From the NCBI GenBank assembly GCA_022709525.1, contig JAKLIQ010000002.1, positions 984-64,983 of the forward strand: a stretch of 64,000 nucleotides of DNA, written 5' to 3'. The translations under genes were made by a program, and so were the position numbers. Below, piece after piece: positions 12,201-31,420 of this stretch. Numbering within the stretch: position 1 is the stretch's first letter; each line of letters begins with the position of its first letter. This stretch comes from Candidatus Omnitrophota bacterium. Lineage in GTDB: Bacteria > Omnitrophota > Omnitrophia > Omnitrophales > Aquincolibacteriaceae. The notes below the pieces were generated by a model. It was given only the letters and a program-made list of their open reading frames with translations, was not told the origin of the DNA and made no database searches.

Positions 12201-14708
12201 TTTTAAAGTTTCTTGGACTGCCAGGTCTGTTTTTTTATCTTTGAAAATCTCTCCTGCGCGCACTTTTTCAGCGGTCAATTTAAGCACCGTTGAGGAAACA
12301 TAACGGACTTGCTGGTTTGCTTCTAGCGCAGGAAGCGCGCCCCAAATATGCTGCGCAGCGCCCTCGACAATAATGAGCGCGGGACCCGGATTAGCCCGAA
12401 GATGAGCGCTTACAGCACTTTCGATTTCAGCCCAACTTGTAATATCCCGTGAAATCGCGTTGGAGGGCTGGTTAGCCAAGGCCTCTTTGTAAGCTTCTTC
12501 GACTACTGGATCTTGCAGATCAAAAAGAGGCATTAAATCACTCAAAAACCCTTCTGCGCCTAATTGGCTTGTCAAATATTCCGCCCTTCTGTCCACGCTT
12601 GTTTTCTCCGAAGATTCATCACGAACCTTGGGCAACTCGGAAACCGGTTTTTCGATTGCTGGTGCAACAATGAGTGGCGCTACAACAGAAATCGCCCCTG
12701 TTGGCGCATAACCGAGGGGTATGCTTCTTGCTCCCGGCTCTAAGGGGCGCTGCGGAGGAATCATTGAAGGTTTGGCTTTGGAAACGTTATCTAAAAGCGC
12801 GGAGACGGTTTGGAGATTTAGTTCCTTTTTCGAAACCAACTCCCGGAGTCCCGTTCCGAATTCCTGGAGCTGCGCCTCGAAACGTTTCCAGATCCCGGCC
12901 AAGGATTCGTCGCGGAAGCGTTCGAGCTCTTTCTGGATCGCGGCGATGATCTCTTCTTTGCTTCTCTTCAACGGCGCTTGACCAAAACGTATTTGCGCGG
13001 GCAAAGCTAGGGCGTCGATATAACGGGTGTACTGCCCCACGTCGGCGATGGTTCCCTTTGCCGCAGCGTTGCGGATCAGTTGATCGCGCCAGGATTTTAG
13101 ATTTCTGTCGAGCCCGGCCAGAGGCAACTCCATCAAGAGTTTTTGCATCGCGGCGCGGGCGAACGCGTCATAAAGCGTCGCATTGGGCGACGGCTTATAC
13201 GAAACATCCCCTTTCATCACGCGCGCATAATTTTCGTAGCCCGTCAATGAATGGATCCGGGGCGTTATCACTAAATGCGAAACGCCGTTGGCCCGGAGGA
13301 TCTTTTTAAGCCCTTCCGTGTGGAAACCTCCGGCGACCATGACCGCGGTCTTCTGTCCCTCCTTGTTCATGAGAGAGGTGAGCCGGTCAAAAAATGCCCG
13401 GTCGCGGGCAAGCGCATGCTCATAAAACTCTAAAGCCGGTTTGACCTTCTCGCGAAAATCCCGATCGCCTAACAGCCCGGCGAAGCTCTCGGGATCCTCC
13501 TGATAGGCCTGGAGCTCCTGATGGGTCAGTTCCAACTTAACGAGATCTTCCAGGATGAAGAGGCGCTCATATTTTTTCGCCAGCTCCCGCTCTTCCGGCT
13601 TTTCTGCCAACGCGGCCATGCTCTCCGGAAGGTATTTCTGCAGTTCATCGAAAAGGCGGCTTCCCTTGATCTCGGAAAGCGTTTCCGTATGCCCGAGCAG
13701 TTTCCGCATCTGCGGGGTTAATTTCGGCCGGAACCCTTTCGATTCGCCGATCCGCACCATGTAAAGCAGGAATTGTCCGGCGCTTAATTTCCCCGTCGAG
13801 AACGCCTGATATTTTCCGTAGAAATTCATTTCCTCTTTGACGCCGAACTGGCGGACATACTTCATTTTGAATTCATTCGCCATCTCGCGGATCATGGGCT
13901 CGAGGGCTTTCTCTTTGCCGGAACGGTCATAGCCGACCGAACTCATAACCTTCGAAAGCTCGGCATAGCGGGACGATTTGGAAGGCCTCAACCCAAGCGC
14001 GTTCAAAGCGAGGAAAAGCTCCAGAACGGAGATGCGCTCGCTGCGGAAACCCTGCCACGCTTCCTGGAAATCGTTCAGCTTCTGCGAATAAACCGATCTG
14101 CGTTCACGATCGAGCTTCTCCTTAAACGATGCGAGACTCTTAAGCAAATCGTCCTTAACCGCCTGGACCTGCAAGTAAGCGCGGTAGTTCCGCTCATAGA
14201 GGTCCCAATTCTCGATACCGTAAAAATTATTTTCTTTTTCGCCGAGGATCGCGGCCATCTCGGGCCCTGTCAACTCAGCCTGTTCCAGATAACCCGTCAT
14301 GACCTTTTGCATGACCTTTGCGTCAGGGAACGCGCGGTAAAGCGTCGGGTCCAGCTTCTCCTTGCCGCCTTCCAAAGCAACGAGACGAACGCCCTGCTCC
14401 TTCTGGAGATATTCGATCAGCCGCTGAATGTTTTCCTGCGCGTCATTGACCGCGTGGGCGTCCTGAATGAGAATGACCGTCTTGTCGCTCGCCGGATCCC
14501 GGAACCTCGCCTGGATCTCGCCGAGAGTGTTCGGTATCGCGATTGCCGCGGTTTGCGACGCGGTCGCCGCAACGGATTGCGCAGCGCCCATATCCCCGCC
14601 GCTGGCAGGGACAGACCACGCGCAGTTCGTTGTCGCGAACACAAACGCGACCACGGCAGCGACTATTCGTCTCCCTTTGTTTTTTTGATACATAGTTTCC
14701 GTGTTCAT
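6264..14708 (-). CDS. Giant secreted or membrane-anchored multidomain protein of about 2815 aa. Paralog of the 8256-aa protein in its N-terminal domain. Contains an HExxH metalloprotease-like motif and internal signal-peptide-like segments.
   Basis: Uninterrupted 8.4 kb ORF. After a short leader, the N-terminus MNTETMYQKNKGRRIVAAVVAFVFATTNCAWSV is a signal peptide or TM anchor. The region around 13050-14600 encodes a domain with ...ILIQDAHAVNDAQENIQRLIEYL...VMVAGGFHTEGLKKILRANGVSHLVITPRI. This is clearly homologous to the N-terminus of the 31421..56191 protein (...VLHVQDAHINEEAQRNIANILRYF...IVTGGFHTPGIEKYLREKDISYIVVAPRI). ILHELVHATHF lies at about 11215-11240. Confidence 0.85.
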   Translation of the reverse strand: MNTETMYQKNKGRRIVAAVVAFVFATTNCAWSVPASGGDMGAAQSVAATASQTAAIAIPNTLGEIQARFRDPASDKTVILIQDAHAVNDAQENIQRLIEYLQKEQGVRLVALEGGKEKLDPTLYRAFPDAKVMQKVMTGYLEQAELTGPEMAAILGEKENNFYGIENWDLYERNYRAYLQVQAVKDDLLKSLASFKEKLDRERRSVYSQKLNDFQEAWQGFRSERISVLELFLALNALGLRPSKSSRYAELSKVMSSVGYDRSGKEKALEPMIREMANEFKMKYVRQFGVKEEMNFYGKYQAFSTGKLSAGQFLLYMVRIGESKGFRPKLTPQMRKLLGHTETLSEIKGSRLFDELQKYLPESMAALAEKPEERELAKKYERLFILEDLVKLELTHQELQAYQEDPESFAGLLGDRDFREKVKPALEFYEHALARDRAFFDRLTSLMNKEGQKTAVMVAGGFHTEGLKKILRANGVSHLVITPRIHSLTGYENYARVMKGDVSYKPSPNATLYDAFARAAMQKLLMELPLAGLDRNLKSWRDQLIRNAAAKGTIADVGQYTRYIDALALPAQIRFGQAPLKRSKEEIIAAIQKELERFRDESLAGIWKRFEAQLQEFGTGLRELVSKKELNLQTVSALLDNVSKAKPSMIPPQRPLEPGARSIPLGYAPTGAISVVAPLIVAPAIEKPVSELPKVRDESSEKTSVDRRAEYLTSQLGAEGFLSDLMPLFDLQDPVVEEAYKEALANQPSNAISRDITSWAEIESAVSAHLRANPGPALIIVEGAAQHIWGALPALEANQQVRYVSSTVLKLTAEKVRAGEIFKDKKTDLAVQETLKVQLRRTVGVAKYLGYGSLEEFVEDRQRRTGSNHLMIGLEETGLHHLYAGDVSSPVYALLSNLLDQYKPASVLYIHENLYVENMQKSFANGFPGQKLPRDEFLLKAKAGGVKVDFAAFGWKDREGLDRFDFPFRAEIRAGENLYEAVPALGGFLARDQKRVGPSRGGLVAAGLAAVIAAGLSSKKISRRAFLKIVGLASAGAAVGFLGAGCETTQSNVGWSKSPVKVPQGYRQPSEAEWRIIEAAWQELQALASDGRNPELKTLLFGENWKDHFFISPKMEGRPDEGGAGGDAVQGGQIVTVDQGAMDWVMSDRAEAWEIFIRTILHELVHATHFQQEFDYGVAEENVTRIETAEFFGDAFFVYDRNTNSVTRYNTSSLDPDAPDYYGGVPDIVDHAERYGEDGNGVVVFGVTSSGMINAYPGQLPPSAVEEAIRLNAEADQKSRAEVRLPVARQGERLSPISRGGFFSRKNLISLLAGVMLGAAVALPTPSMAQERQVYHKDGALVKLADDTDGTPIMMNLGKAGEASEVQIYFQVLMDYFQSISIKPDYWRATLMPVTVKTPDGRTETILVEWGMSFIPFPGYWDGDGNYHHKGRIDNLKFRRGFQGSVVVTGDFIDDNGMIQTDGFVATISPSKKDKEGRFDYLKINVKYNVRAASPRIGFSGAKFDPDRIRLGEALKTWQPSSMFVRPGGPGAGIYDTDKIIINTEDGLWEEIPLETVSGLLSETPYKLGRYGIGFVNEGRARDVPTFWLVPRGKNVANVYLDLDGDPDADSLGGGISPADLRSEYPPGTPITSVDYDLYVFPPGDPWPYLERIFPELKGKRSQFLKSGESKPESGVSRQEFRSELRISGKEAIARMGWVAVFAVLGMMMLDIFAAFRYQKTTGIEPLKDLAYELVTGKRRDDGYANNPMYDIRSGQAIERNLPTLVRENRMRVFEKELFQSGALQGGQCVFVLIQTEDGERIGAAHFFPGKKGEYISDAELRQQIATAIGRLQERGIGEGSVFHVFMNGASEEPDFSDAIISGFSKQYKQGEIISDVTSGYGINLIVSSPERDGLRKLTIRSGDFAAEDLLGEGEIDTKGRITIRRTDRPKTRAETRAAEERYFKEESLSWLGDKLFSGMSAEDAPEILKNYIQPGVKKRNVLLNIQYGRDLRVAVSPVRPLGFLTASHSDLARKAQMGEWNRGYVSATLDFGYKKALIIPDNARTVSISEKREQTIVTAKLLRDILEKTGENPELWDLTVADLLRILGISDPTQITLPNVAGLDLESFEKPAAIERGVLESKEGVRVRAEMRMKWRERFEKVIQNIPRNAREYKPYGKSPGWAEVGKKVEFDSMYYEVLQRLTKYDGSSLIVLAMQMRQGSDQIPEKLVAIKVYPTQSELDAADEMIGKNQKEIPHLVMSNIAADDQRDAENVYPLLISDWTSPIAVSNYRDSDFLDEFQLIPFEGLEDRYGVPPKSAFTIMDFFLRAPEEPGAEKTSYAFYSLEFLLQAFRSIREGEILGFYFEDSFVHNFWCSSERENGIPVFRRGDLDGGVSVKDPRAKQILWDRFFDESDWRRPGIVPFFLKYRAFLDERVVNFLETARSSYPDPERLPNDFVVKMVEGLEMIRNDATKTLAGESAFNQAFKRAEVRTVVSPDNSFTLLTGSDSAQILAALGRNPSDAEVKNVLAQLKRSGERGFSNLAPLFNLAIAEFVEILNNLPNADAVILGIPDAWAAFETGLGDKARLVNTAAEFSRLNTIIAGELTTAPVAITAEAELTQYDRAKLNALVKQLVAANAELLSKMKGVPINILMDHTPGTSSDILGIIESLEELRQLVVFYDGKEKENVPGRGYHKVTNRFTPLNYSGKDVNRLASNKITADSRELWFGITSKDIGFSELGVLLCNSNLDHFKLADPAARQVVKLIVQHMLYKYMILSRSAQQAIAKNPELLKTYLEDMPGSSFLKRNSKSGWSVAVEEFNNAFQAKESIETAA

Positions 14709-14890
14709 AATGTCTTCTTTTTTAAGTCGTAAAATCTTTACACAGCCTCCTTCTCTGCATTCCGCAACCCTTTGCAACAACACTCGTTGCCTCTAGAAAT
14801 ATTTGATTTTTCCTCCAATACAAAAGTAGCATGATAGAGAAGATATTACAAGATATTGAAAAGATTTATATATTATTCAGAGGTTATAAT

Positions 14891-14944: not shown

Positions 14945-15231
14945 TTGCAGAATTTCCCGCGACCCTGAAGCGCGCTCCCGCGCCCGAGCGGGCATGGAGA
15001 TTAAGACAGGGCTTGCGATTCCGGCACCGGCGGTTCGTCATTCCTGCGATAACGACCGCCTGCGCTCTCGTCCCGCAGATTCCTCCTCTTGAGGAAACCA
15101 AGCTCTGCGGGACTCCGAGAGCTGCCTTCACGCAAGCCCTGTCTTATCGAGCGAGGGCAAGGGTGCGAGTGAGTCCCGCCTCGCCGGCGGCGGGACGAAC
15201 GGCGAGGAAGGAGCGGCGGGAAATTCTGCAA
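14945..15231. repeat. MITE-like ~287 bp palindromic element, copy 1, with 16 bp perfect terminal inverted repeats (ttgcagaatttcccgc ... gcgggaaattctgcaa)
   Basis: The whole element is a long imperfect hairpin (e.g. agacagggcttgcg ... cgcaagccctgtct). It shares ends and internal blocks (agcgcgctcccg, ggcaccggcggttc, gagtcccgcctcgc.ggcggcgggacgaa) with the second copy at 18709..18994. No ORF inside is credible. Confidence 0.65.
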
Positions 15232-17051: not shown

Positions 17052-18664
17052 TCCGGCACCCTCCGCTGGATGACGTGCGGTTTGCGCCAGGCGATATAGA
17101 CCAAGAAAACCATAAACGCGGCGATCCCGATCAGCATAAATCGGGCAAACCATATGTAAGGATAGTCCGCCGCCGAAACGCCTTTCATGGTCAAGACGCC
17201 CCATCCGTCCTGGATGAACCAGAACACCATAAGAGCCACAAGATACGCCAGCGTGACGTATTTCATGAGCGGAAGCACAAAGCGCGGCAAACGGATATCA
17301 GCACCTGAATTGATCTCTTTCCACGCATTGGCGGCGCCGAATACCCAAATAAAGAGGACCACCTCGAGGATCGCGAAAACCACGAGCCCGAACGTGCCGA
17401 TCCAGAAATCGATCTCATTTAAGAATCCGTGCTTCAGGAAAAAGATCACGGGAAGCGTGAAAAAGAACGTCATCGTTCCCACGATCCATGCGGCGACCCT
17501 GCGAGAGGTCTTAAATTCCTCCTGCAAGAAGGCCATGATGGGCTGAGCCATAGCAACTGACGAAGTAACGCCGGCAAGAAAGAGAAGAAAGAACCAGATC
17601 GTTCCGAACACCTGCCCCAGGAACATCTTCTGGAAAATGATGGGCATCGCAAAAAAACCGAGATCGAAAGCTCCTCCGGCCGCGATCGTCTTTGTTTGAG
17701 CAAGGCCGAAAAAGGCCACCGTGACCGGTATCGCGATCGATCCGCCCAGGATCACCTCGCAGAATTCATTGGTCGTGCTTGTCGCGACACCTGAAAGCAC
17801 CACATCATCCTTGGGTTTCAAGTAGCTTGCGTAGGTCTGGATCGCGCCGAATCCGACGCTTAAGGTAAAAAAGATCTGGCCGGTCGCGGCAAGCCAGACC
17901 TTGCTTTCCTTAAGCATGCTGAAATCGGGATTCCAGATAAAACCAAAACCGTTCGCGATGTTGTTCTCCGGCAAAGCCGGATCGGGGGTCCCGAGAAAGA
18001 GAACGCGGATCACAAGAATGGCTCCGAAGACAAAAATAAGCGGCATGGCGGTCTTGGCAAGACGCTCGATCCCTTTGGAAACCCCGCGCGAGATGATCCA
18101 CATCATGCAGAAATGCGTGATACAGAAAAAAAGGAACGCCGTCATGATATTGGGAAAATAATTATTGGAGATCTTTCCCTGATAGGCGGCGAGGAAATCG
18201 GCCATACCCCGGAAGTCCAGGATGCCGGCGTATTTTCCGGTCAAAGAAAAAACGCTATAAGCCAGCGTCCAGGAAACGATGTAGTTGTAATAGATCACAA
18301 GCGCGAAAGGGATCGTCAGGCCGATCGCGCCGACATATTTCGCGAGCGGGTGCTTCCAGAGGTAATGGAACATCCCCGGCGTCGTCCCATGGCCGTATTT
18401 GCCGCCAAAGCGGCCGATCCCCCATTCGATCCACATGAGCGGGATGCCGAGCAGGATGAACGCGATAAAATAAGGGATCATGAACGCCCCGCCCCCATTC
18501 CCGGCGCACTGGACTGGAAAACGGAGAAAATTCCCGAGACCGACGGCGTTGGCAGCCATCGCAAGGATAAGGCCAAGACGGGTCCCCCACTGTTCGCGGG
18601 ATTTTGGCTGGGAAGGCGGCTGATTCATGGAGAGAAGGTTAGCGAAAAAAAAGGCGAGGTTCAA
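17048..18664 (-). CDS. Sodium-dependent transporter, neurotransmitter:sodium symporter (NSS/SNF) family
   Basis: 538 aa. N-terminal signature REQWGTRLGLILAMAANAVGLGNFLRFP plus about 12 TM segments. The exact start is uncertain (MNL.. at 18664 or MNQPP at 18628). Confidence 0.9.
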   Translation of the reverse strand: MNLAFFFANLLSMNQPPSQPKSREQWGTRLGLILAMAANAVGLGNFLRFPVQCAGNGGGAFMIPYFIAFILLGIPLMWIEWGIGRFGGKYGHGTTPGMFHYLWKHPLAKYVGAIGLTIPFALVIYYNYIVSWTLAYSVFSLTGKYAGILDFRGMADFLAAYQGKISNNYFPNIMTAFLFFCITHFCMMWIISRGVSKGIERLAKTAMPLIFVFGAILVIRVLFLGTPDPALPENNIANGFGFIWNPDFSMLKESKVWLAATGQIFFTLSVGFGAIQTYASYLKPKDDVVLSGVATSTTNEFCEVILGGSIAIPVTVAFFGLAQTKTIAAGGAFDLGFFAMPIIFQKMFLGQVFGTIWFFLLFLAGVTSSVAMAQPIMAFLQEEFKTSRRVAAWIVGTMTFFFTLPVIFFLKHGFLNEIDFWIGTFGLVVFAILEVVLFIWVFGAANAWKEINSGADIRLPRFVLPLMKYVTLAYLVALMVFWFIQDGWGVLTMKGVSAADYPYIWFARFMLIGIAAFMVFLVYIAWRKPHVIQRRVPE

Positions 18665-18708: not shown

Positions 18709-18994
18709 TTGCAGAATTTCCAAGCGATCCGGGAGCGCGCTCCCGAGGCGAAGCGGGCACGGTGCTCTTGAGGTCTCGATTCGGCACCGGCGGTTCTCGA
18801 ATCCAGCGATTCTCACCCGCCTGCGGCCTCGTTCCGCAAATTTTCCGAACGAAAATACGGAAAAACCATGCTTTGCGAAACTCCGGCAGCTGCCTCCGTC
18901 GAGACCTCAAGAGCGAGCGTAGACGAGGGCGCGAAAGAGTCCCGCCTCGCTGGCGGCGGGACGAATGGCGCTGTAGGATGCTTGGAAATTCTGC
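18709..18994. repeat. MITE-like ~286 bp palindromic element, copy 2 (TIR ttgcagaatttccaagc ... gcttggaaattctgc)
   Basis: About 75-80% identical to copy 1 at 14945..15231, in conserved blocks. It has an internal inverted repeat (ctcttgaggtctcga ... tcgagacctcaagag). Confidence 0.65.
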
Positions 18995-19880: not shown

Positions 19881-19921
19881 AAAAAAAAGCCCATGACCGC
19901 TTTTCACGATCATGGGCTTTT
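19881..19921. terminator. Bidirectional rho-independent terminator (A8, stem gcccatga/tcatgggc, T4)
   Basis: 8 bp GC-rich stem with a 13 nt loop, flanked by aaaaaaaa on one side and tttt on the other. It is downstream of the minus-strand genes ending at 19955. Confidence 0.6.
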
Positions 19922-21073: not shown

Positions 21074-21137
21074 GTGATATGCCTTTATTGCTAATAATTT
21101 TCGCCCAAATGCTCGAGGACTTTAGCCCCCTTTGTCT

Positions 21138-21173
21138 CAACTAGCGCAGTTAAAATTTTAACTGCGCTAGTTG
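21138..21173. promoter_or_regulatory. 36 bp perfect palindrome caactagcgcagttaaaa|ttttaactgcgctagttg between the tal-pgi and amidase genes
   Basis: Read directly. 18 bp arms and no following U-run, so it looks more like a protein-binding site or RNA hairpin than a canonical terminator. Confidence 0.45.
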
Positions 21174-21179
21174 AAAAGG

Positions 21180-24146: not shown

Positions 24147-25223
24147 TCAAGAGGTTAAATTCTCCCGGACCTTCACGATCAGTTCTTTGACCCCCTGCTT
24201 GCGTGCGGCCGAAACAAGGACGCCCTCCGGAAAATTCTCCTGGGCCCTCGTCTTCTCCGCGTCGTTCAAAAGATCGGCCTTGTTTAGCGCGAGAACTTTT
24301 TTCTTGGCCTCCGCTCCCAATTCTTTCAGGACTTCGTCCACCACATATTTATGCTGGATGAAATGCTCGCTTGCCGCATCGACAACAACCAAGATCAGAT
24401 CGGCATCAACAGCTTCCTCAAGCGTCGCATGGAACGCTTTGACAAGTCCGTGCGGCAGATTCCGGATGAACCCGACCGTATCGGTAAAAAGGATCGCGGG
24501 CTCCGTCCCGTCGTTATAGATCCGCGTCTTCGGATCGAGGGTCGCGAAAAGCCGGTTTTCCACATACGCGTCGGCGCCCGTGAGGGCGTTTAAAAGCGTG
24601 GATTTTCCCGCATTGGTGTAACCGACGATGGCCACCTGCCGCAGCCCTTTTTGCCTGCGGCCTTTGCGGATCTGAGCCCGGTGCGTCCGGAGTTTTTCCA
24701 ATTGCGCTTGAATATACTCCATGCGCCGGCGGATCTTACGGCGGTCCACTTCGAGCTTTTGTTCGCCGGGGCCGCGCGTCCCGATGCCGCCTCCAAGACG
24801 CGACATGATCACGCCCTGTCCGACAAGCCGCGGCAGGAGATACTGCATCTGCGCCAGCTCGACCTGGAGTTTTCCATCGCTTGAAACGGCGCGCCTCGCA
24901 AAAATATCGAGGATCAGTCCCGTCCGGTCGACCACCCGGACGCCGCAATCCTCCTCAAGATTCCGCGCCTGGACAGGCGTCAAGTCGACACTGAAGATCA
25001 GAACATTCGCTCCGGTTTTGACGATCTCGTCGCGAAGCTCCCCGATCTTTCCTTTGCGGATAAAATGACTCGGGCTGGGATGAACCACATTGGCCGTCAC
25101 GCTCGCGACCACGCTCCCTTGGGCGGATTCGGTCAGCTCCGTCATCTCCTCCAGGATGTCGCGAGGTTCGGGACAGTCCTTCGCGCCCGTTTTGATGAGG
25201 ACCAGGCAAACTTTATCGCGCAT
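24147..25223 (-). CDS. hflX: GTPase HflX
   Basis: G-domain motifs GYTNAGKSTLLNALTG, DTVGFI, NKAD. GGAGGG lies 9 nt upstream of the MRDKVCLVLI start at 25223. The ORF-track extension to 25331 runs into a palindromic repeat and is probably not translated. Confidence 0.85.
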   Translation of the reverse strand: MRDKVCLVLIKTGAKDCPEPRDILEEMTELTESAQGSVVASVTANVVHPSPSHFIRKGKIGELRDEIVKTGANVLIFSVDLTPVQARNLEEDCGVRVVDRTGLILDIFARRAVSSDGKLQVELAQMQYLLPRLVGQGVIMSRLGGGIGTRGPGEQKLEVDRRKIRRRMEYIQAQLEKLRTHRAQIRKGRRQKGLRQVAIVGYTNAGKSTLLNALTGADAYVENRLFATLDPKTRIYNDGTEPAILFTDTVGFIRNLPHGLVKAFHATLEEAVDADLILVVVDAASEHFIQHKYVVDEVLKELGAEAKKKVLALNKADLLNDAEKTRAQENFPEGVLVSAARKQGVKELIVKVRENLTS

Positions 25224-25252
25224 AACCGTCACCCTCCGGACGACGCGGAAAG

Positions 25253-25318
25253 TCGGGACTAGGGACTCGGGACTCGCCTTGGATTTGACGCGCAACAAGT
25301 CCCGAGGGACGAGTCCCG
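25253..25318. repeat. Small palindromic element family 1 (gggactcgggactcg ... cgagggacgagtccc), copy A
   Basis: Shares the gggactcg / cgagtccc / gggactaggg core with copies at 28490, 29006, 30086 and 30980. Confidence 0.6.
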
Positions 25319-25360
25319 CCGTCTCGATCAAACATTACATGATCCGGTCTTAAATAACTC

Positions 25361-26377
25361 TCAGAGTCCATTTTTTATCATTCTCAGCGCAAAATCTCGC
25401 ACCAGTTTGATCGAAACGGCTTCGGGCCACCAGATCCAGCGGATACCGCGTTCGCGTTTAAACCACGTCCATTGCCTTTTGGCGAAATGGCGCGTCGCCT
25501 GTTTGATGCGGTCTTTCACTGTCCCCAGCGGCGTCTTCTTCAACCCTGTACACACCGGGTGTGTACAGGGTGCCACACCGGGTGTGTACAGGGTGCCAGG
25601 CGTAAGCCAGTCCAGGACTTCTTTATAGCCAACCCCTTGTAACGCGGTTTGGGAAAGTTTCTTTTTCGCCAGGCGCTTTACTTCGCGCGCAAGGCCTTGA
25701 CGGAACATCCGGTCCACGCGGTCGTTGATCTTCCGGTAAAGCGCGGCCCTGTCCCGGTGGAGGCCGATCACGACCGGCTGGTAGCCAAGTTCTTTAAGTC
25801 CGGGTTTTTTAAGGATTGTTTTGGAAGGCTTCTTCCCCGAAACCTCGTAGATCTCCAAAGCGCGGAGGATCCGCCTCTGGTTATGGGGGCCGATGGCCCT
25901 GGCCCGCTTAGGGTCCAGCTTGAGAAGCTGCTTGTAGAGGGCCGGTAAGCCCTTTTTTAGGGCTTCCCGCTCAAGTTTCCGGCGTATTGGAAGATTGCCC
26001 CCCGGCTGAGGCGAAATCCCCTCTAAAAGCCCCCTAATGTAAAAACCCGTTCCTCCCGCCACAATAGGGGTTTTCCCCCGCTTCACGATGTCCTTGATAG
26101 CCTTGAGGGCAAATTGGCGGTAAGCAAAAACAGAGAAATGCTTTGTCGGCGGGATAAGGTCGATCCCGTGATGCGGGATACCGCCGCGTTCTTTTTTTGT
26201 GGGTTTCGCGGTCCCGACATCCATGTCTTTATAGACCAGCATGGAATCCGCGGAAATAACTTCACCGTTGAGTTTTTTTGCGAGCGCGACGGCCAGCGCT
26301 GATTTTCCGGATGCCGTGGGGCCAACGATGAAAAGAACCAAAGACGGTGTCAAAGTATCAAAGTGTCTGTGTGTCAA
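25361..26377 (-). CDS. miaA: tRNA dimethylallyltransferase MiaA, carrying an in-frame palindromic-repeat insertion
   Basis: P-loop IVGPTASGKSALAVALA plus a C-terminal RHFAKRQWTWFKRE. The extra segment PGTLYTPGVAPCTHPVCTG is encoded by the family-2 repeat at 25544-25596. Confidence 0.88.
   Translation of the reverse strand: MTHRHFDTLTPSLVLFIVGPTASGKSALAVALAKKLNGEVISADSMLVYKDMDVGTAKPTKKERGGIPHHGIDLIPPTKHFSVFAYRQFALKAIKDIVKRGKTPIVAGGTGFYIRGLLEGISPQPGGNLPIRRKLEREALKKGLPALYKQLLKLDPKRARAIGPHNQRRILRALEIYEVSGKKPSKTILKKPGLKELGYQPVVIGLHRDRAALYRKINDRVDRMFRQGLAREVKRLAKKKLSQTALQGVGYKEVLDWLTPGTLYTPGVAPCTHPVCTGLKKTPLGTVKDRIKQATRHFAKRQWTWFKRERGIRWIWWPEAVSIKLVRDFALRMIKNGL
25544..25596. repeat. Small palindromic element family 2 (ccctgtacacaccgggtgtgtacaggg, tandem copy and a half), inserted in-frame in miaA
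   Basis: Near-identical copy at 30463-30516, inside nadE. Confidence 0.65.
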
Positions 26378-26380
26378 AAT

Positions 26381-26788
26381 CTACCTCCTCTCCCTTGAGG
26401 GAGAGGACTGAGGTGAGGGGGATTTTAGCGCCCGGACGATTAACGCAAGCACACTTTCCATATTCTGAAGAATCTCATGATTCCAAAACCGAACGATTTG
26501 ATAACCTTTCTTGGTGAGGTAATCCGCACGCAGGAAATCATTTACAGAATCTCCCGAATGCTGTCCGCCATCCACTTCGATGATCAATCTTCGTTCAAAG
26601 CAACAAAAATCGGCAATATATTTTCCTATGGGGTGCTGTCTGCGAAATTTAAAACCGGAAAGTTGTCTGTTTCGAAGATGTAGCCAAAGTTTCTTTTCCG
26701 TATCAGTTTGGTTACGCCGCAACTTGCGGGCTAACAAACCCTCACCCTTCCCTCTCCCTGAAGGGAGAGGGGTGCGTTTTACCGTCAC
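26381..26788 (-). CDS. DUF559 (Vsr-like) endonuclease-domain protein
   Basis: ARKLRRNQTDTEKKLW...IADFCCFERRLIIEVDGGQHS...QIVRFWNHEI matches the DUF559 consensus. It lies between miaA and argS, with its ATG overlapping the argS stop. GGGAGAGG-type palindromes occur at both ends (26385-26406, 26741-26775). Confidence 0.75.
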   Translation of the reverse strand: MTVKRTPLPSGRGKGEGLLARKLRRNQTDTEKKLWLHLRNRQLSGFKFRRQHPIGKYIADFCCFERRLIIEVDGGQHSGDSVNDFLRADYLTKKGYQIVRFWNHEILQNMESVLALIVRALKSPSPQSSPSRERR

Positions 26789-28482: not shown

Positions 28483-28489
28483 ATTTTTA

Positions 28490-28552
28490 CGAGGGACTCG
28501 GGACTCGCACCTCGGGACTCGTTCTTTTATTTTACGAGTCCCTAGTCCCGAG
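28490..28552. repeat. Small palindromic element family 1, copy B (intergenic, argS-rsfS)
   Basis: gggactcgggactcgcacctcgggactcg ... cgagtccctagtcccgag. Confidence 0.6.
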
Positions 28553-28568
28553 CGACAAGCCCCTTTTT

Positions 28569-28901: not shown

Positions 28902-29005
28902 GCAAACTCCTCTTTTTGAAATTTTGCGAATTATAACACAACTCAGACCGAAGACTGAAGACCAAAGACTATCGCCTCCGAACTCGTTTTAGTTCCTCGT
29001 TTTTT

Positions 29006-29034
29006 CGAGTCCCTAGTCCCGGAGAACGAGTCCC
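29006..29034. repeat. Small palindromic element family 1, copy C, overlapping the 3' end of ogt
   Basis: cgagtccctagtcccggagaacgagtccc. Its reverse complement encodes the last six residues (GLVLRD) and the TAG stop of ogt. Confidence 0.6.
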
Positions 29035-29507
29035 TTTTTTTCGTATTCCAACAACCGGCGCTTCCACTGCTTCCCCGCCGAATACTTACCGATCCCGCCG
29101 GTTGCGGGAATGACGCGGTGACACGGGATCACGATCGGTAACCGGTTTTTCCGCATGGCGCTCCCCACCGCGCGCGCGGCGCCGGGATATCCCGTCCGCC
29201 TGGCAAGCTCGCCGTAGCTGATTACTTGTCCGGCCGGCACTTTTTGAAGTGCGCGATAGATCTTTTTCTCAAAAATTGTGCGGCCCGAAAGATCTAATTT
29301 AAAATTTATTTTTCTAGCCGGATCATTGAAATATTGATTCACGGCTTGGGTTGCCTTTATAGAGAACCGGTCTCTTTTTGTAGAGACCGGGTCTCTGCGG
29401 GGTAAGAATGATCCTGGGAACTTTACGGCATAAAGCCCTTTGGGACTTATTTCAAGCTTAAACGTCCCCCACTTTGTTTTTACAGGTATTGGGTAAAGGC
29501 TCTGCAT
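29013..29507 (-). CDS. ogt: Methylated-DNA--protein-cysteine methyltransferase
   Basis: Active-site PCHRVI. The helix-turn-helix segment YGELARRTGYPGAARAVGSAMRKN. 164 aa. Confidence 0.8.
   Translation of the reverse strand: MQSLYPIPVKTKWGTFKLEISPKGLYAVKFPGSFLPRRDPVSTKRDRFSIKATQAVNQYFNDPARKINFKLDLSGRTIFEKKIYRALQKVPAGQVISYGELARRTGYPGAARAVGSAMRKNRLPIVIPCHRVIPATGGIGKYSAGKQWKRRLLEYEKKGLVLRD
29361..29396. repeat. Tandem palindromes agagaaccggtctct / agagaccgggtctct inside the ogt N-terminal domain
   Basis: Read directly. Encodes RRDPVSTKRDRFSI in-frame. Palindromic element family 3. Confidence 0.45.
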
Positions 29508-29556
29508 TGGTTTCTGGCTATAGTCTGTGGTCTATGGTCTGCGGTCTCCGATTTGC

Positions 29557-31281
29557 CTACCCGGCAAATCGGTTCGTGATCGGCATGCGGCGGCCAAACC
29601 ACGCCTTCGGGGTCACGCGCAGAATGGGCGGCGTCTGGCGGCGTTTATACTCGTTATGGTCGACCTTACGGATGGTGTCGGCCACGATCCCGGAAGAAAC
29701 TTTTTTCCTAAGCTTGCGAATGATCTCATCACAGCTCATATTTTTCTCGATATAAAGCGAGAGCACTTCATCCAGGATCTCGTAAGGCGGGAGCGAATCC
29801 TGGTCTTTCTGATTGGGCCGAAGCTCGGCCGAGGGGGCTTTGGTCAAAATAGGTTCCGGGATCACTTTTTTTATGGTGTTGCGATAGCGAGCTAAGCGGT
29901 AAACATCTGTCTTATAAAGATCGCCGATCACCGCAAGACCCCCCGCCATGTCCCCGTAAAGCGTGCAATAACCCATTGCCAGCTCCGATTTATTGCCGGT
30001 CGTCAGGACCAGCCGGCCTTCGTGGTTGGAAAGGAACATAAGCTCCATGCCGCGGAGGCGCGCCTGAAGATTTTCCATCGCTAAACTCGGGACTTGTTCC
30101 TCGGGACTTGTTCCTCGATTGGGTTCCTCGTTTTTGCGAGTCCCTAGTCCCGAGCCCCGAGTCCCGGCTTGGTTTTGGAGAAATGTTTCATACATTTTTT
30201 TAATCGGACGGGTTTCAAACTGAATACCGAGACGCCGCGCTAATTCCTGTGAATCCTTCCAGCTCCCTTCCGAAGAAAAAGGGCCGGGCATCGTGACGCC
30301 TTTGACCGCGTCTTTACCCAAAGCGTCCGCCGCGATCGCCGCGACAAGCGCGGAATCGATCCCGCCGCTTAAGCCGATCACGGCTTTTTTAAATCCGTTC
30401 TTCCTGAAGTAGTCGCGAACGCCAAGAACCAGCGCGTCATAAATTTCTTTCGCCTCTTCGAACCCTGTACACACCGGGTGTGGCACCTCGGTACACACCC
30501 GGTGTGTACAGGGTGGAGCATCGAAAAAGAAAAGATCCTCCTTAAAGGCAGGCGCGCAGAACTGAACCCGTCCTTTTCCGTCGACAAAGAAACTTCGGCC
30601 GTCAAAGATCAGGTCGTCCTGGCCTCCGACCTGATTCACATAAAGGACCGGGAAACCGTAGCGCGCGGCGTGGCCTTTGACGAGCTTCTCACGAGCCGCG
30701 GCGACATCCCGGTAATAGGGCGAGGCGGAAATATTGATGACCAGGTCGGCTTTTTTGCGCGCGAGCGCGGCGAGCGGCTTCACCTTGTAACGCTCGTCCC
30801 AGATATCCTCGCAAATGGTCAGGCCGATCTTGCGGCCTTTCCACGGAATGACTTTCGTTTCGAAGCCGGGACGAAAGAAGATCTCCTCAAGGAAAACGTC
30901 ATAGGTCGGAAGAAGCTGTTTGTGATAGATCTCGCGGATCTTTCCCTTCTCGATCCAGGCAAGGGCGTTGTATGAATTGCCCGGGACTTGGGACTTGGGA
31001 CTCGAAATCCGCTCAATAAAACCAAGGACCACGGCGATGCGTTTGCCCCTGGTAGCAACAGCAATACGCTTGAGACGCTTTAGGCCTTCATTTAGGAATT
31101 GCTTTTTATTGGCAAGGTCCCAGACCGGATAGCCGCAAAGAGCGCATTCGGGGAAAACGACAAGATCCGCGCCCTGGCGTTCCGCCAGATCGATCCAGCG
31201 CAGGATCCTTGCCGTATTGGACTCGTAGTCCCCCACCGTCGGATCCATCTGCGCAATGGCGAATTTTATAGGGGTTTTCAT
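29557..31281 (-). CDS. nadE: Glutamine-dependent NAD+ synthetase (N-terminal C-N hydrolase domain plus NAD synthase domain), with three in-frame repeat insertions
   Basis: N-terminal nitrilase-like domain (FAIAQMDPTVGDY...VVFPECALCGYP). PP-loop AVIGLSGGIDSALVAAIA. 574 aa. Segments GTRGSGLGTRKNEEPNRGTSPEEQVPS, PCTHRVCTEVPHPVCTG and SSPKSQVPGNSY are encoded by the repeat families. Confidence 0.88.
   Translation of the reverse strand: MKTPIKFAIAQMDPTVGDYESNTARILRWIDLAERQGADLVVFPECALCGYPVWDLANKKQFLNEGLKRLKRIAVATRGKRIAVVLGFIERISSPKSQVPGNSYNALAWIEKGKIREIYHKQLLPTYDVFLEEIFFRPGFETKVIPWKGRKIGLTICEDIWDERYKVKPLAALARKKADLVINISASPYYRDVAAAREKLVKGHAARYGFPVLYVNQVGGQDDLIFDGRSFFVDGKGRVQFCAPAFKEDLFFFDAPPCTHRVCTEVPHPVCTGFEEAKEIYDALVLGVRDYFRKNGFKKAVIGLSGGIDSALVAAIAADALGKDAVKGVTMPGPFSSEGSWKDSQELARRLGIQFETRPIKKMYETFLQNQAGTRGSGLGTRKNEEPNRGTSPEEQVPSLAMENLQARLRGMELMFLSNHEGRLVLTTGNKSELAMGYCTLYGDMAGGLAVIGDLYKTDVYRLARYRNTIKKVIPEPILTKAPSAELRPNQKDQDSLPPYEILDEVLSLYIEKNMSCDEIIRKLRKKVSSGIVADTIRKVDHNEYKRRQTPPILRVTPKAWFGRRMPITNRFAG
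30086..30178. repeat. Small palindromic element family 1, copy D, 93 bp, in-frame inside nadE
   Basis: ctcgggacttgttcctcgggacttgttcc ... gcgagtccctagtcccgagccccgagtcccggc. The length is a multiple of 3. Confidence 0.65.
30463..30516. repeat. Small palindromic element family 2 copy, 54 bp, in-frame inside nadE
   Basis: ccctgtacacaccgggtgtggcacctcggtacacacccggtgtgtacagggtgg. Confidence 0.65.
30980..31004. repeat. Family 1 partial copy (cccgggacttgggacttgggactcg) inside nadE
   Basis: Read directly. Confidence 0.45.
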
Positions 31282-31420
31282 AGGCGAGGATTATATCACA
31301 CGCAGACTGGAGACTACAGACTTCAGCGATCAGCTTTCAGTTATCAGTCGTCAGTCACCAGCCAAAAAGATTTTGCTGAAGACCGAGGCTGTGAGCTGAT
31401 ATCTGATAGCTGTCGATGAA

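What the first reader, a model, noticed from the sequence alone, without database searches (positions are those of the whole stretch)
29557..31281. Intergenic palindromic repeats inserted in-frame into nadE (three sites), miaA and ogt, like Rickettsia palindromic elements
The same nucleotide motifs seen between genes also occur inside conserved housekeeping ORFs without breaking frame. Family 1 has the core gggactcg/cgagtccc; family 2 is ccctgtacacaccgggtgtgtacaggg. Family 1 sits at 30086-30178 (93 bp, 31 codons) and 30980-31004 in nadE. Family 2 sits at 30463-30516 in nadE and 25544-25596 in miaA. A third palindrome lies at 29361-29396 in ogt. This is the hallmark of selfish palindromic elements that tolerate or select for in-frame insertion into surface loops.
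Basis: seen in the sequence. Interest (0 to 1): 0.85.

Follow-up and report, generated by a model that had tools for sequence, protein, structure and literature searches.

The report
In-frame hairpin repeats in Omnitrophota genes
Short hairpin-forming DNA repeats that litter the gaps between genes in this uncultivated Omnitrophota bacterium also sit, in frame and translated through, inside loops of essential enzymes (NadE, MiaA, Ogt), a phenomenon known from Rickettsia and, as far as I could find, not reported for this phylum.

Summary
GGGACTCG occurs 13 times against 1.95 expected, and the CCCTGTACACACC palindrome 6 times against 0.35. All copies lie at the stated coordinates, and nadE, miaA and ogt remain intact ORFs.

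The window comes from a Candidatus Omnitrophota MAG. Orthologues at 64-79% identity, distant orthologues and solved structures show three clear net insertions: nadE site B (54 nt), nadE site C (about 90 nt) and the miaA element. They fall in predicted coil or low-confidence loops, or in a domain linker.

Two claimed sites are not net insertions. nadE 30980-31004 is a heptamer triplet with no hairpin. The ogt palindrome sits in a linker of equal length in orthologues. Both are still repeat-derived.

In related genomes nearly every NadE indel is a hairpin, drawn from at least seven families. These families also occur between genes, in other genes (valS, ogt, miaA), at different sites and in different reading frames. 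Copies are better conserved between genomes than neutral codon positions.

Best reading: RPE-like, non-autonomous hairpin repeats, many with tandem-heptamer arms. Selection keeps only in-frame, stop-free copies in loops. The spreading enzyme is not identified. Novelty: a new member of a known kind, in a new phylum.

The parts
29557..31281 (-). nadE (glutamine-dependent NAD+ synthetase, 574 aa), host of three repeat segments
   Evidence: Pfam CN_hydrolase + NAD_synthase. Full-length match to PDB 5kha, E 7e-123. An identical 574-aa allele occurs in independent JGI/ENA assemblies.
30086..30178 (-). Family 1 hairpin element in nadE site C. Peptide: QAGTRGSGLGTRKNEEPNRGTSPEEQVPS, aa ~369-399.
   Evidence: Present or absent among orthologues. 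RNA fold z -3.4. AF2 coil with pLDDT below 50 at residues 373-395. The loop sequence is shared with copies in other genes and spacers.
30462..30514 (-). Family 2 nested palindrome in nadE site B. Peptide: PPCTHRVCTEVPHPVCTG. It lies in the linker between the glutaminase and synthetase domains.
   Evidence: 21-nt arms, 100% complementary. Fold -46.7 kcal/mol, z -7.5. +33 nt relative to L083 and L085. pLDDT below 50 at residues 256-274. Stop-free in 6 of 6 frames.
30980..31004 (-). Family 1 heptamer triplet (GGGACTT x2 + GGGACTC) in nadE site A. Peptide: SSPKSQVPG.
   Evidence: TRF period 7, 2.9 copies. No hairpin, z -0.3. Same loop length as in L083 and 6 aa longer than 5kha. The loop lies between strands E83-90 and E103-111.
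25361..26377 (-). miaA (tRNA isopentenyltransferase)
   Evidence: Pfam IPPT, E 4.6e-78. PDB 3d3q.
25543..25594 (-). Family 2 element (2.1 tandem copies of a 23-nt unit forming a hairpin) in miaA. Peptide: TPGTLYTPGVAPCTHPVCTG.
   Evidence: Repeat and tandem-repeat calls. Fold z -4.6. Aligns to an 18-aa gap in 3d3q. Absent in L083 and L208. The same site carries a different family in L206.
29013..29507 (-). ogt (methylated-DNA-protein-cysteine methyltransferase)
   Evidence: Pfam DNA_binding_1, E 8e-31.
29361..29396 (-). Palindrome AGAGAACCGGTCTCT/AGAGACCGGGTCTCT in the variable N-terminal linker of ogt (aa ~38-49)
   Evidence: Fold z -8.3. Not a net insertion. The same site carries unrelated palindromes in L206 and L208; the L208 one is the dispersed family F3.
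28983..29040 (-). Family 1 copy overlapping the 3' end of ogt. It supplies the last residues (VLRD) and the TAG stop codon.
   Evidence: 83% identical over 52 nt to the nadE site C copy (D1). Sequence and translation. The left arm has decayed, z -1.2.
28487..28560 (.). Family 1 hairpin in the rsfS|argS spacer
   Evidence: Sequence and repeat calls. Fold z -6.3. The orthologous spacer has family 1 in L081, family 4 in L206 and L208, and another heptamer hairpin in L083.
25253..25320 (.). Family 1 hairpin in the miaA|hflX spacer. It lies inside the over-long TTG-started hflX ORF call.
   Evidence: Sequence and repeat calls. Fold z -3.1. The Pfam match of HflX starts at aa 60.
28941..28972 (.). 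Heptamer array (AGACYNN x4) in the ogt|rsfS spacer, just upstream of a TTATAAT box
   Evidence: TRF. Spacer comparison.
29518..29550 (.). Heptamer array (NNGGTCT x4) in the nadE|ogt spacer. It is the inverted complement of the arrays at 28941 and 31302.
   Evidence: TRF. Spacer comparison.
31302..31362 (.). Nine-unit heptamer array in the giant-ORF|nadE spacer, abutting TGATATAAT (31290-31298), which ends 8 nt before the nadE ATG
   Evidence: Sequence. Conservation of the box in 6 genomes.
26387..26406 (.). Family 7 hairpin CCTCTCCCT-nnn-GGGAGAGG at the 3' end of the DUF559 ORF
   Evidence: 0 expected by chance. The same family lies in frame in nadE of L206.
26751..26770 (.). Family 7 hairpin at the 5' end of the DUF559 ORF. 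Together with 26387-26420 it brackets the gene as inverted repeats.

Best explanation
The segments are copies of several families of short (about 36-95 nt), non-autonomous, hairpin-forming repeat elements. They populate this Omnitrophota lineage.

Architecture. A typical copy has two inverted arms around a short loop that is A-rich on the sense strand. The arms are often 2-4 tandem heptamers such as GGGACTN.

Distribution. Copies land in intergenic spacers and also in coding DNA.

Why the coding copies are in frame. In essential genes, selection removes any copy that breaks the protein. Surviving copies add a multiple of three bases, have no stop codon in the frame used, and fall in surface loops or domain linkers. 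The ribosome reads through them. The result is extra low-complexity peptides: GTR.../...SPESRVP from family 1 and PCTHRVCT...HPVCTG from family 2.

Why they tolerate coding contexts. The clean heptamer arms and the family 2 palindrome are stop-free in all six frames.

What is shown: repetition, hairpin potential, presence/absence among orthologues, loop location, and occurrence of the same family at non-homologous sites, genes and frames.

What is inferred: that the inserts are translated, that they are neutral or selfish, and how they spread. My preferred spreading mechanism is trans-mobilisation of the folded single-stranded hairpin by an enzyme encoded elsewhere, with a preference for existing hairpin or A/T-rich sites. 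I give that sub-claim about 0.4.
For: 1. Statistics and coordinates are confirmed.

2. Presence/absence. nadE sites B and C and the miaA insert are missing in L083 and L208 and in many of 75 orthologues. Family 1 at site C is patchy on the NadE tree. The inserts align to gaps in 5kha and 3d3q.

3. Loop location. The sites are coil with pLDDT below 50 at residues 95-98, 256-274 and 373-395.

4. Common origin. Family 1 copies in nadE, the ogt 3' end, two spacers, L085/L207 nadE, and L100 valS plus a spacer share the loop AAAAACGAGGAACCnAAACGAG as well as the arms.

5. Other genes, sites and frames.
- L100 ValRS has two in-frame family 1 copies that align to gaps in 1gax.
- F5 lies in L206 nadE site E, in L206 miaA and in two L206 spacers. 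Half of it lies in L208 nadE site C.
- F6 is 86% identical between L207 nadE and L085 ogt, and is read in different frames.
- F3 is nested inside family 1 in L081.
- F7 lies in L206 nadE and flanks DUF559 in the window.

6. Nearly all NadE indels in six relatives fold as hairpins, z -2.7 to -7.6.

7. Conservation. Elements are 73-89% identical between genomes. The nadE core is 70-76% identical and third codon positions 43-54%. Family 2 shows one compensatory double change that keeps the palindrome.

8. Open frames. Coding copies are often open in 6 of 6 frames, against below 3% for random segments of at least 54 nt.

9. Independent assemblies give the identical allele.
Against: - No transposase, RAYT or parent IS is present in the 64 kb window or in the related loci.
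- No target-site duplications are visible, so the insertion step itself is unobserved.
- In the window, all copies cluster in 6 kb (25.2-31.4 kb). In L100 they cluster within about 1.5 kb. That is odd for free transposition.
- The same sites are occupied by different families in different genomes. Hot-spot targeting, replacement or local processes could also explain this.
- Two of the five claimed sites show no net length gain.
- There is no expression or proteomic evidence that the inserts are translated.
- A genome-wide copy number could not be obtained.
Confidence: 0.75

Rival explanations
1. The elements are generated where they lie, with no mobile element involved. Replication slippage expands heptamers. 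Intra- or inter-strand template switching makes inverted duplications and corrects quasi-palindromes. Nearby arrays seed each other through microhomology or gene conversion.
For: - Arms are true period-7 tandem arrays.
- Even the short versions of the NadE loops read as three heptamers, for example DCRLQTADC = CAGACTG x3.
- Copies cluster locally.
- There are no TSDs and no transposase.
- The compensatory double change in family 2 fits hairpin-templated correction.
Against: - Whole elements, including non-repetitive loops, are shared between unrelated sites, genes and genomes. This holds for the family 1 loop, for F5 at 69 nt in nadE, miaA and spacers, and for F6 at 84 nt and 86% identity in nadE against ogt.
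- Nested insertions exist.
- Slippage alone cannot move a unique loop sequence into another gene.
Confidence: 0.12
2. The hairpins and heptamer arrays are functional nucleic-acid signals kept by selection at each position. Candidate roles are mRNA stabilisers or processing sites, attenuators, ribosome-pausing structures at domain borders, or binding arrays for a regulator. On this view the coding copies are exaptations rather than tolerated parasites.
For: - Every orthologous rsfS|argS spacer keeps a heptamer-armed hairpin although the sequence family differs.
- Arrays sit exactly upstream of conserved TGnTATAAT boxes and bracket nadE and ogt as inverted repeats.
- The family 1 loop is A-rich on the sense strand in nearly all copies aligned.
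- Site B lies at the glutaminase/synthetase domain border.
- Copies are conserved above neutral sites, with one compensatory change.
Against: - Close relatives function without the coding copies (L083 and L208).
- Occupancy is patchy on the NadE tree.
- Copies decay. The ogt 3' copy has lost its left arm (z -1.2). A 12-nt VPIP remnant of F6 remains in L085.
- No Rfam family matches.
- This reading is not exclusive of a mobile origin.
Confidence: 0.1
3. The segments are native, ancient loops of these enzymes that merely resemble the intergenic motifs. Alternatively, they are metagenome assembly artefacts.
For: Sites A and the ogt linker have the same length in close orthologues.
Against: - The segments are absent from distant orthologues, from solved structures and from several 75-78% identical orthologues.
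- Nucleotide-level identity to intergenic copies is 83% over 52 nt.
- Identical alleles occur in independent assemblies and samples.
Confidence: 0.03

Closest known systems
Rickettsia palindromic elements (RPE; Ogata et al. 2000, 2002), with related protein-coding palindromes in Wolbachia. As reviewed in PMC10969869, PMC2229807 and PMC3184786.
   Same: Several families of palindromic repeats occur both between genes and in frame inside conserved housekeeping genes. The inserts encode extra peptides at positions compatible with the fold. The distribution implies past mobility without a known transposase.
   Different: - RPEs are about 105-150 bp; these are 36-95 nt.
- The host phylum is unrelated (Omnitrophota, not Rickettsiales).
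- I did not run a sequence comparison against RPEs.
- Arms here are often tandem heptamers.
- The same element is read in different frames, whereas each RPE family encodes a conserved peptide.
- The same permissive site is re-used by different families in different genomes.
REP / REPIN / BIME elements with RAYT transposases
   Same: Both are short, G+C-rich, imperfect palindromes that are species- or clade-specific. Both sit in spacers inside operons (for example rsfS|argS), are likely to affect mRNA, and act as targets for further insertions.
   Different: REPs are extragenic by definition, whereas these also lie in coding DNA. No RAYT gene was seen in the sequence available. No conserved GTAG-type head is evident.
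MITEs with open reading frames: the 107-bp Correia form, ERIC, BRE, and pneumococcal BOX/RUP/SPRITE (PMC2229807, PMC3184786)
   Same: These are non-autonomous stem-loop repeats. Forms that lack stop codons are found fused in frame to genes or extending their 3' ends. The ogt stop codon here is an example of the latter.
   Different: No target-site duplication, no TA ends and no parent IS were detected. The elements here are much smaller.
Cyanobacterial STRR heptanucleotide repeats (Mazel et al. 1990) and the small dispersed repeats of Nostoc (Elhai et al. 2008). Recalled from memory; these papers could not be opened here.
   Same: Tandem heptamers occur in spacers. STRR1 CCCCAGT, when rotated, reads CAGTCCC, close to GAGTCCC here. 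Very small mobile palindromic repeats nest in one another and occasionally sit inside genes.
   Different: The phylum differs. Here the heptamer arrays are paired into hairpins and repeatedly lie in frame in enzymes. No sequence-level comparison was run.

Membership tests
RPE (Rickettsia palindromic elements) | Palindromic sequence predicted to form a long stem-loop | tested here: met
   Fold z -3.1 to -8.3 for 6 of 8 window copies. Relatives give z -2.7 to -7.6.
RPE (Rickettsia palindromic elements) | Copies both intergenic and in frame inside conserved protein genes, absent from orthologues | tested here: met
RPE (Rickettsia palindromic elements) | Inserted peptide lies at the protein surface or in a loop | tested here: met
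   AF2 coil with pLDDT below 50 at all three NadE sites. The sites align to gaps in 5kha, 3d3q and 1gax. Solvent exposure was not computed.
RPE (Rickettsia palindromic elements) | Length about 105-150 bp and membership of the RPE-1 to RPE-10 sequence families, restricted to Rickettsiales | tested here: not met
   Elements are 36-95 nt. The host is Candidatus Omnitrophota. No direct alignment to RPE consensus sequences was possible.
RPE (Rickettsia palindromic elements) | Tens of dispersed copies per genome | tested here: inconclusive
   Only 64 kb of this genome is available. All copies lie within 25.2-31.4 kb. Dispersal is shown across genes and genomes, not genome-wide.
REP/REPIN | Strictly extragenic location | tested here: not met
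   Five copies lie inside ORFs in the window.
REP/REPIN | Cognate RAYT (Y1 transposase) gene flanked by the repeats | tested here: inconclusive
   No transposase domain among 26 window ORFs scanned (the giant ORF was not scanned) or in the gene tables of the related loci. The rest of the genome was not seen.
MITE | Terminal inverted repeats | tested here: met
   The arms are inverted repeats.
MITE | Target-site duplication, and a parent IS sharing the TIRs | tested here: not met
   No direct repeats flank family 1, 2, 5 or 6 copies on reading the junctions. No IS is present. DUF559 bracketed by F7 halves is the only gene-carrying candidate.
STRR-type heptanucleotide repeats | Tandem arrays of a 7-nt unit in non-coding DNA | tested here: met
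   TRF period-7 arrays at 25253, 28493, 28945, 29518, 30137, 30983 and 31394.
STRR-type heptanucleotide repeats | Occurrence in heterocystous cyanobacteria with the STRR1-3 consensus units | tested here: not met
   The host is Omnitrophota. The units differ: GGGACTN, AGACYNN and GTACGGN.

The most novel reading that the evidence does not exclude
These may be more than passive RPE-like passengers. They could be a previously undescribed class of heptamer-built hairpin elements that are currently active and that target existing hairpins or permissive sites.

On this reading the elements would have three further properties:
- They are mobilised by, or travel with, small nuclease genes. The argS-miaA spacer holds DUF559, GIY-YIG or IVP cassettes, and DUF559 here sits inside a split F7 palindrome.
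- They double as promoter-proximal or operon-bracketing signals. Arrays replace the -35 region upstream of conserved TGnTATAAT boxes and flank nadE and ogt as inverted repeats.
- They drive rapid, concerted remodelling of enzyme loops across a whole clade.
Probability: 0.2. Interest if true: 0.8.

Novelty: new member of a known kind. Interest (0 to 1): 0.6.

Why it matters
In-frame palindromic repeats in essential genes have mainly been studied in Rickettsia. This case shows the same phenomenon in free-living or epibiotic, uncultivated Omnitrophota, and at unusual density. NadE has at least five insertion sites across the clade, at least seven element families are involved, and the same loop is re-colonised by different families.

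- **Protein evolution.** The clade offers a natural experiment on how enzymes tolerate and acquire loops.
- **Annotation and alignment.** Low-complexity peptides such as GTR.../SPESRVP, PCTHRVCT and SFP..GNP..PIKAFGDD are repeat-derived.
- **Assembly.** These repeats can break metagenome assemblies. One partial NadE contig ends at the site C element.
- **Mobility.** The heptamer-armed hairpins may help in finding the still unknown machinery that moves REP- or RPE-like DNA.

Tried and rejected
1. The search for related loci with NadE in genome contigs. These were useful only as a 1.4 Mb negative control.

2. Metagenome scan for CGGGACTNGGGACTNG. It stopped at 120 rows, mostly single matches that look like chance hits in high-GC contigs. 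Only L100, L126 and a few others were real family 1-like elements.

3. Protein-database search with a synthetic family 1 peptide to list other host proteins. There were 37 candidates and nothing usable.

4. Extending the window with flanking genes. The patatin ORF is not on record. The PFOR gene gave only a 16-kb JGI contig. No genome-wide census was possible.

5. Rfam. No family matched. Only sub-threshold miRNA-precursor hits appeared, reflecting the hairpin shape.

6. Sigma-70 promoter scan. The count was not above shuffles, and it misses the extended -10 boxes because there is no -35 element.

7. A hairpin inside the LeuT-like transporter (17858-17915). It is not an insertion; the alignment to LeuT is gapless there.

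8. Intron, intein or spliced-out readings were considered and rejected. The segments are short, always a multiple of three and stop-free, which would be unnecessary if they were removed.

9. DGR target readings were considered because bAvd/IVP genes lie nearby. They were rejected because there is no template/variable repeat pair.
Full report
**Observation**

- GGGACTCG occurs 13 times against 1.95 expected. Twelve of these lie between 25262 and 31004.
- CCCTGTACACACC with up to 2 mismatches occurs 6 times against 0.35 expected.
- Repeat and hairpin scans recover three things: family 1 (GGGACTN heptamers, a loop, then NAGTCCC heptamers), family 2 (ACCCTGTACACACCGGGTGTG / CACACCCGGTGTGTACAGGGT, 21-nt arms) and the ogt palindrome.

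All genes in the region lie on the minus strand and are intact. They are hflX, miaA, a DUF559 ORF, argS, rsfS, ogt and nadE, followed by an 8256-aa ORF.

On the sense strand the copies fold far better than shuffles.

| Copy | z-score |
|---|---|
| nadE site C | -3.4 |
| nadE site B | -7.5 |
| miaA | -4.6 |
| ogt palindrome | -8.3 |
| rsfS\|argS spacer | -6.3 |
| miaA\|hflX spacer | -3.1 |
| nadE 30980-31004 (heptamer triplet) | -0.3 |
| Copy at the ogt 3' end (decayed) | -1.2 |
| Two coding controls | about 0 |

**Organism and reproducibility**

The closest NadE and ArgRS cluster members are named Candidatus Omnitrophota bacterium. The source contig is 334 kb. An identical 574-aa NadE occurs in independent JGI/ENA assemblies. 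Related alleles recur in separate samples. The inserts are therefore not assembly artefacts.

**Are the segments lineage-specific?**

I aligned 30 and then 75 Omnitrophota NadE sequences at 64-79% identity. The window's three segments fall in hypervariable, indel-rich sites.

Codon alignments with syntenic loci L081, L083, L085, L206, L207 and L208 show the following.
- Site B is +33 nt relative to L083 and L085.
- Site C is +42 nt relative to L083.
- Site A has the same length as in L083 but is 6 aa longer than the solved Acinetobacter NadE (5kha).
- 5kha also has gaps at sites B and C.
- About 80 NadE loci from other phyla match over 1.61-1.72 kb. They lack the family 2 core and have almost no tandem family 1 pairs.

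For the other two genes:
- The miaA segment aligns to an 18-aa gap in MiaA 3d3q. It is absent in L083 and L208.
- The ogt palindrome is not a net insertion, because the linker has equal length in orthologues.
- The ogt stop codon and last residues come from a family 1 copy.

**Structure**

An AF2 model was built from the 30-sequence alignment (mean pLDDT 74.5). All three NadE segments lie in coil with pLDDT below 50.
- Residues 95-98 lie between two strands.
- Residues 256-274 form the linker between the glutaminase and synthetase domains.
- Residues 373-395 lie between helices 361-372 and 400-421.

Other low-confidence stretches exist in the model. This evidence counts only together with the alignment gaps.

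**Generality and evidence of dispersal**

In six relatives nearly every NadE indel is itself a hairpin, with z from -2.7 to -7.6. The families recur in other places.

| Family | Description | Where found |
|---|---|---|
| F1 | GGGACTN heptamer arms | Copies in nadE, at the ogt 3' end, in two spacers, in L085/L207 nadE, and in L100 share the non-repetitive loop AAAAACGAGGAACCnAAACGAG. In L100, valS carries two in-frame copies that align to gaps in ValRS 1gax, and there is a spacer copy. |
| F2 | ACCCTGTACACACC... palindrome | nadE site B and miaA in the window and in L081 |
| F3 | GGGGACAGGCA..TGCCTGTCCCC | Spacers of L081, L085 and L208; in frame in L208 ogt; nested inside F1 in L081 nadE |
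| F4 | GTACGGC heptamers | nadE site A of L206 and L207; spacers of L206, L207 and L208 |
| F5 | 69-nt double hairpin; peptide SFP..SGNP..GSPIKAFGDD | L206 nadE site E, L206 miaA (the same site as the window's F2), two L206 spacers; half of it in L208 nadE site C |
| F6 | About 84 nt | 86% identical between L207 nadE site D and the conserved domain of L085 ogt, read in different frames. L085 nadE keeps only its first 12 nt. |
| F7 | CCTCTCCC..GGGAGAGG | In frame in L206 nadE; brackets the DUF559 ORF in the window |

Further points:
- Elements are 73-89% identical between genomes. The nadE core is 70-76% identical and third codon positions 43-54%.
- F2 shows a compensatory A>C / T>G change that preserves the palindrome.
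- Coding copies are often stop-free in all six frames. The rate for random segments of at least 54 nt is below 3%.

**Mechanism**

The data fit RPE-like, non-autonomous hairpin repeats filtered by selection. In essential genes only in-frame, stop-free copies in loops persist. I hold this reading at 0.75.

How the elements move is not shown.
- No transposase is present in the sequence I could see.
- No target duplications are visible.
- Copies cluster locally.
- The same sites are re-used by different families. Hairpin-targeted insertion, replacement by gene conversion, or template switching all remain possible.

I prefer trans-mobilisation of the folded single strand, at about 0.4.

Purely local generation is contradicted by unique loop sequences shared between unrelated genes. 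A functional-signal reading is plausible for spacer copies but not required for coding copies, because close relatives lack them.

**Comparison with known systems and novelty**

The behaviour matches RPEs and ORF-carrying MITEs (PMC10969869, PMC2229807, PMC3184786). The elements are not RPE members by size, host or architecture. The heptamer arms recall cyanobacterial STRR repeats; that comparison rests on memory.

Full-text searches found no report for this phylum.
- Omnitrophota combined with palindromic returned nothing relevant.
- The two main Omnitrophota genome papers contain none of the words palindrome, hairpin, heptamer, MITE or in-frame.
- RPE combined with metagenome returned only Rickettsia papers.

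I rate this a new member of a known kind, with interest 0.6.

**Limits**

- Only 64 kb of this genome was available.
- Both large collection scans were largely unproductive.
- Translation of the inserts is inferred.
- L100 is taxonomically unnamed.

Noticed in passing
window 31421-56191 (-) and 6264-14783 (-): A giant ORF of 8256 aa lies directly upstream of nadE. Its G+C is lower (0.42-0.47) than the rest of the window (0.52-0.56). A second ORF of 2839 aa has no Pfam match. Giant genes at the same syntenic position occur in L083, L206 and L208 (4775 to 8851+ aa). This is consistent with published Omnitrophota giant genes (PMC10066038; bioRxiv 10.1101/2023.11.21.568195).
   Followed up: partly
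window 14946-15229 and 18711-18994: Two paralogous elements of about 285 nt lie in direct orientation and are 82% identical. Each is closed by a 13-bp terminal stem (TTGCAGAATTTCC...GGAAATTCTGCAA). The consensus fold has 78 pairs, 10 of which are kept through changes on both sides. There is no Rfam hit even at E<=1. They flank a CitMHS_2 / LeuT-like transporter pair. This is a candidate unknown structured RNA or structured repeat.
   Followed up: partly
window 31290-31298 (-), 28925-28931 (-); L081, L083, L085, L206, L207, L208 spacers: A conserved extended -10 box (TGATATAAT or ATGATATAAT) ends about 8 nt before the nadE ATG in seven genomes. This suggests a leaderless nadE mRNA. A TTATAAT box precedes rsfS. 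Heptamer arrays occupy the position where a -35 element would be. The standard promoter scan misses these boxes.
   Followed up: partly
window 28941-28972, 29518-29550, 31302-31362; L206 and L083 equivalents: Heptamer arrays in successive spacers alternate in orientation. As a result ogt and nadE are each bracketed by inverted repeats of about 30 nt. The same holds in L206 (AGACYNN units) and in L083 with a completely different heptamer (GCAARGR). The meaning is unknown.
   Followed up: no
window 26381-26788 (-), 26387-26420 and 26739-26772: The DUF559 ORF (Vsr-like endonuclease fold) sits inside a split F7 palindrome. Its Pfam match covers only aa 19-121, so both protein ends are repeat-derived. 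The argS-miaA spacer holds a different small gene in each genome: DUF559 here, GIY-YIG in L206, 23S_rRNA_IVP/bAvd in L083 and none in L208. L206 has the same F7 hairpin upstream of its GIY-YIG gene. These may be mobile nuclease cassettes.
   Followed up: partly
window 21137-21174 and 19885-19921: A perfect 38-nt palindrome TCAACTAGCGCAGTTAAAA/TTTTAACTGCGCTAGTTGA lies in the tal-pgi|LysM-amidase spacer. A terminator-like hairpin AAAAGCCCATGA...TCATGGGCTTTT is conserved nearly unchanged in L083, L206 and L208.
   Followed up: no
window 24147-25331 (-): The mechanical hflX ORF starts at a TTG far upstream. The Pfam match begins at aa 60, and the family 1 hairpin at 25253-25320 lies inside the over-extended 5' part. 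The true start is probably downstream and the hairpin is intergenic.
   Followed up: no
P0127 (NCBI HRY85850.1, 6.5-kb contig) relative to window 30086-30178: A partial NadE from another assembly of the same species begins immediately after the site C element. The repeat apparently broke that assembly.
   Followed up: no
L126 1215-1482: A metagenome contig carries a composite palindrome of about 260 nt. It has outer family 1-like heptamer arms and an inner long inverted repeat. It may be a larger relative of family 1.
   Followed up: no
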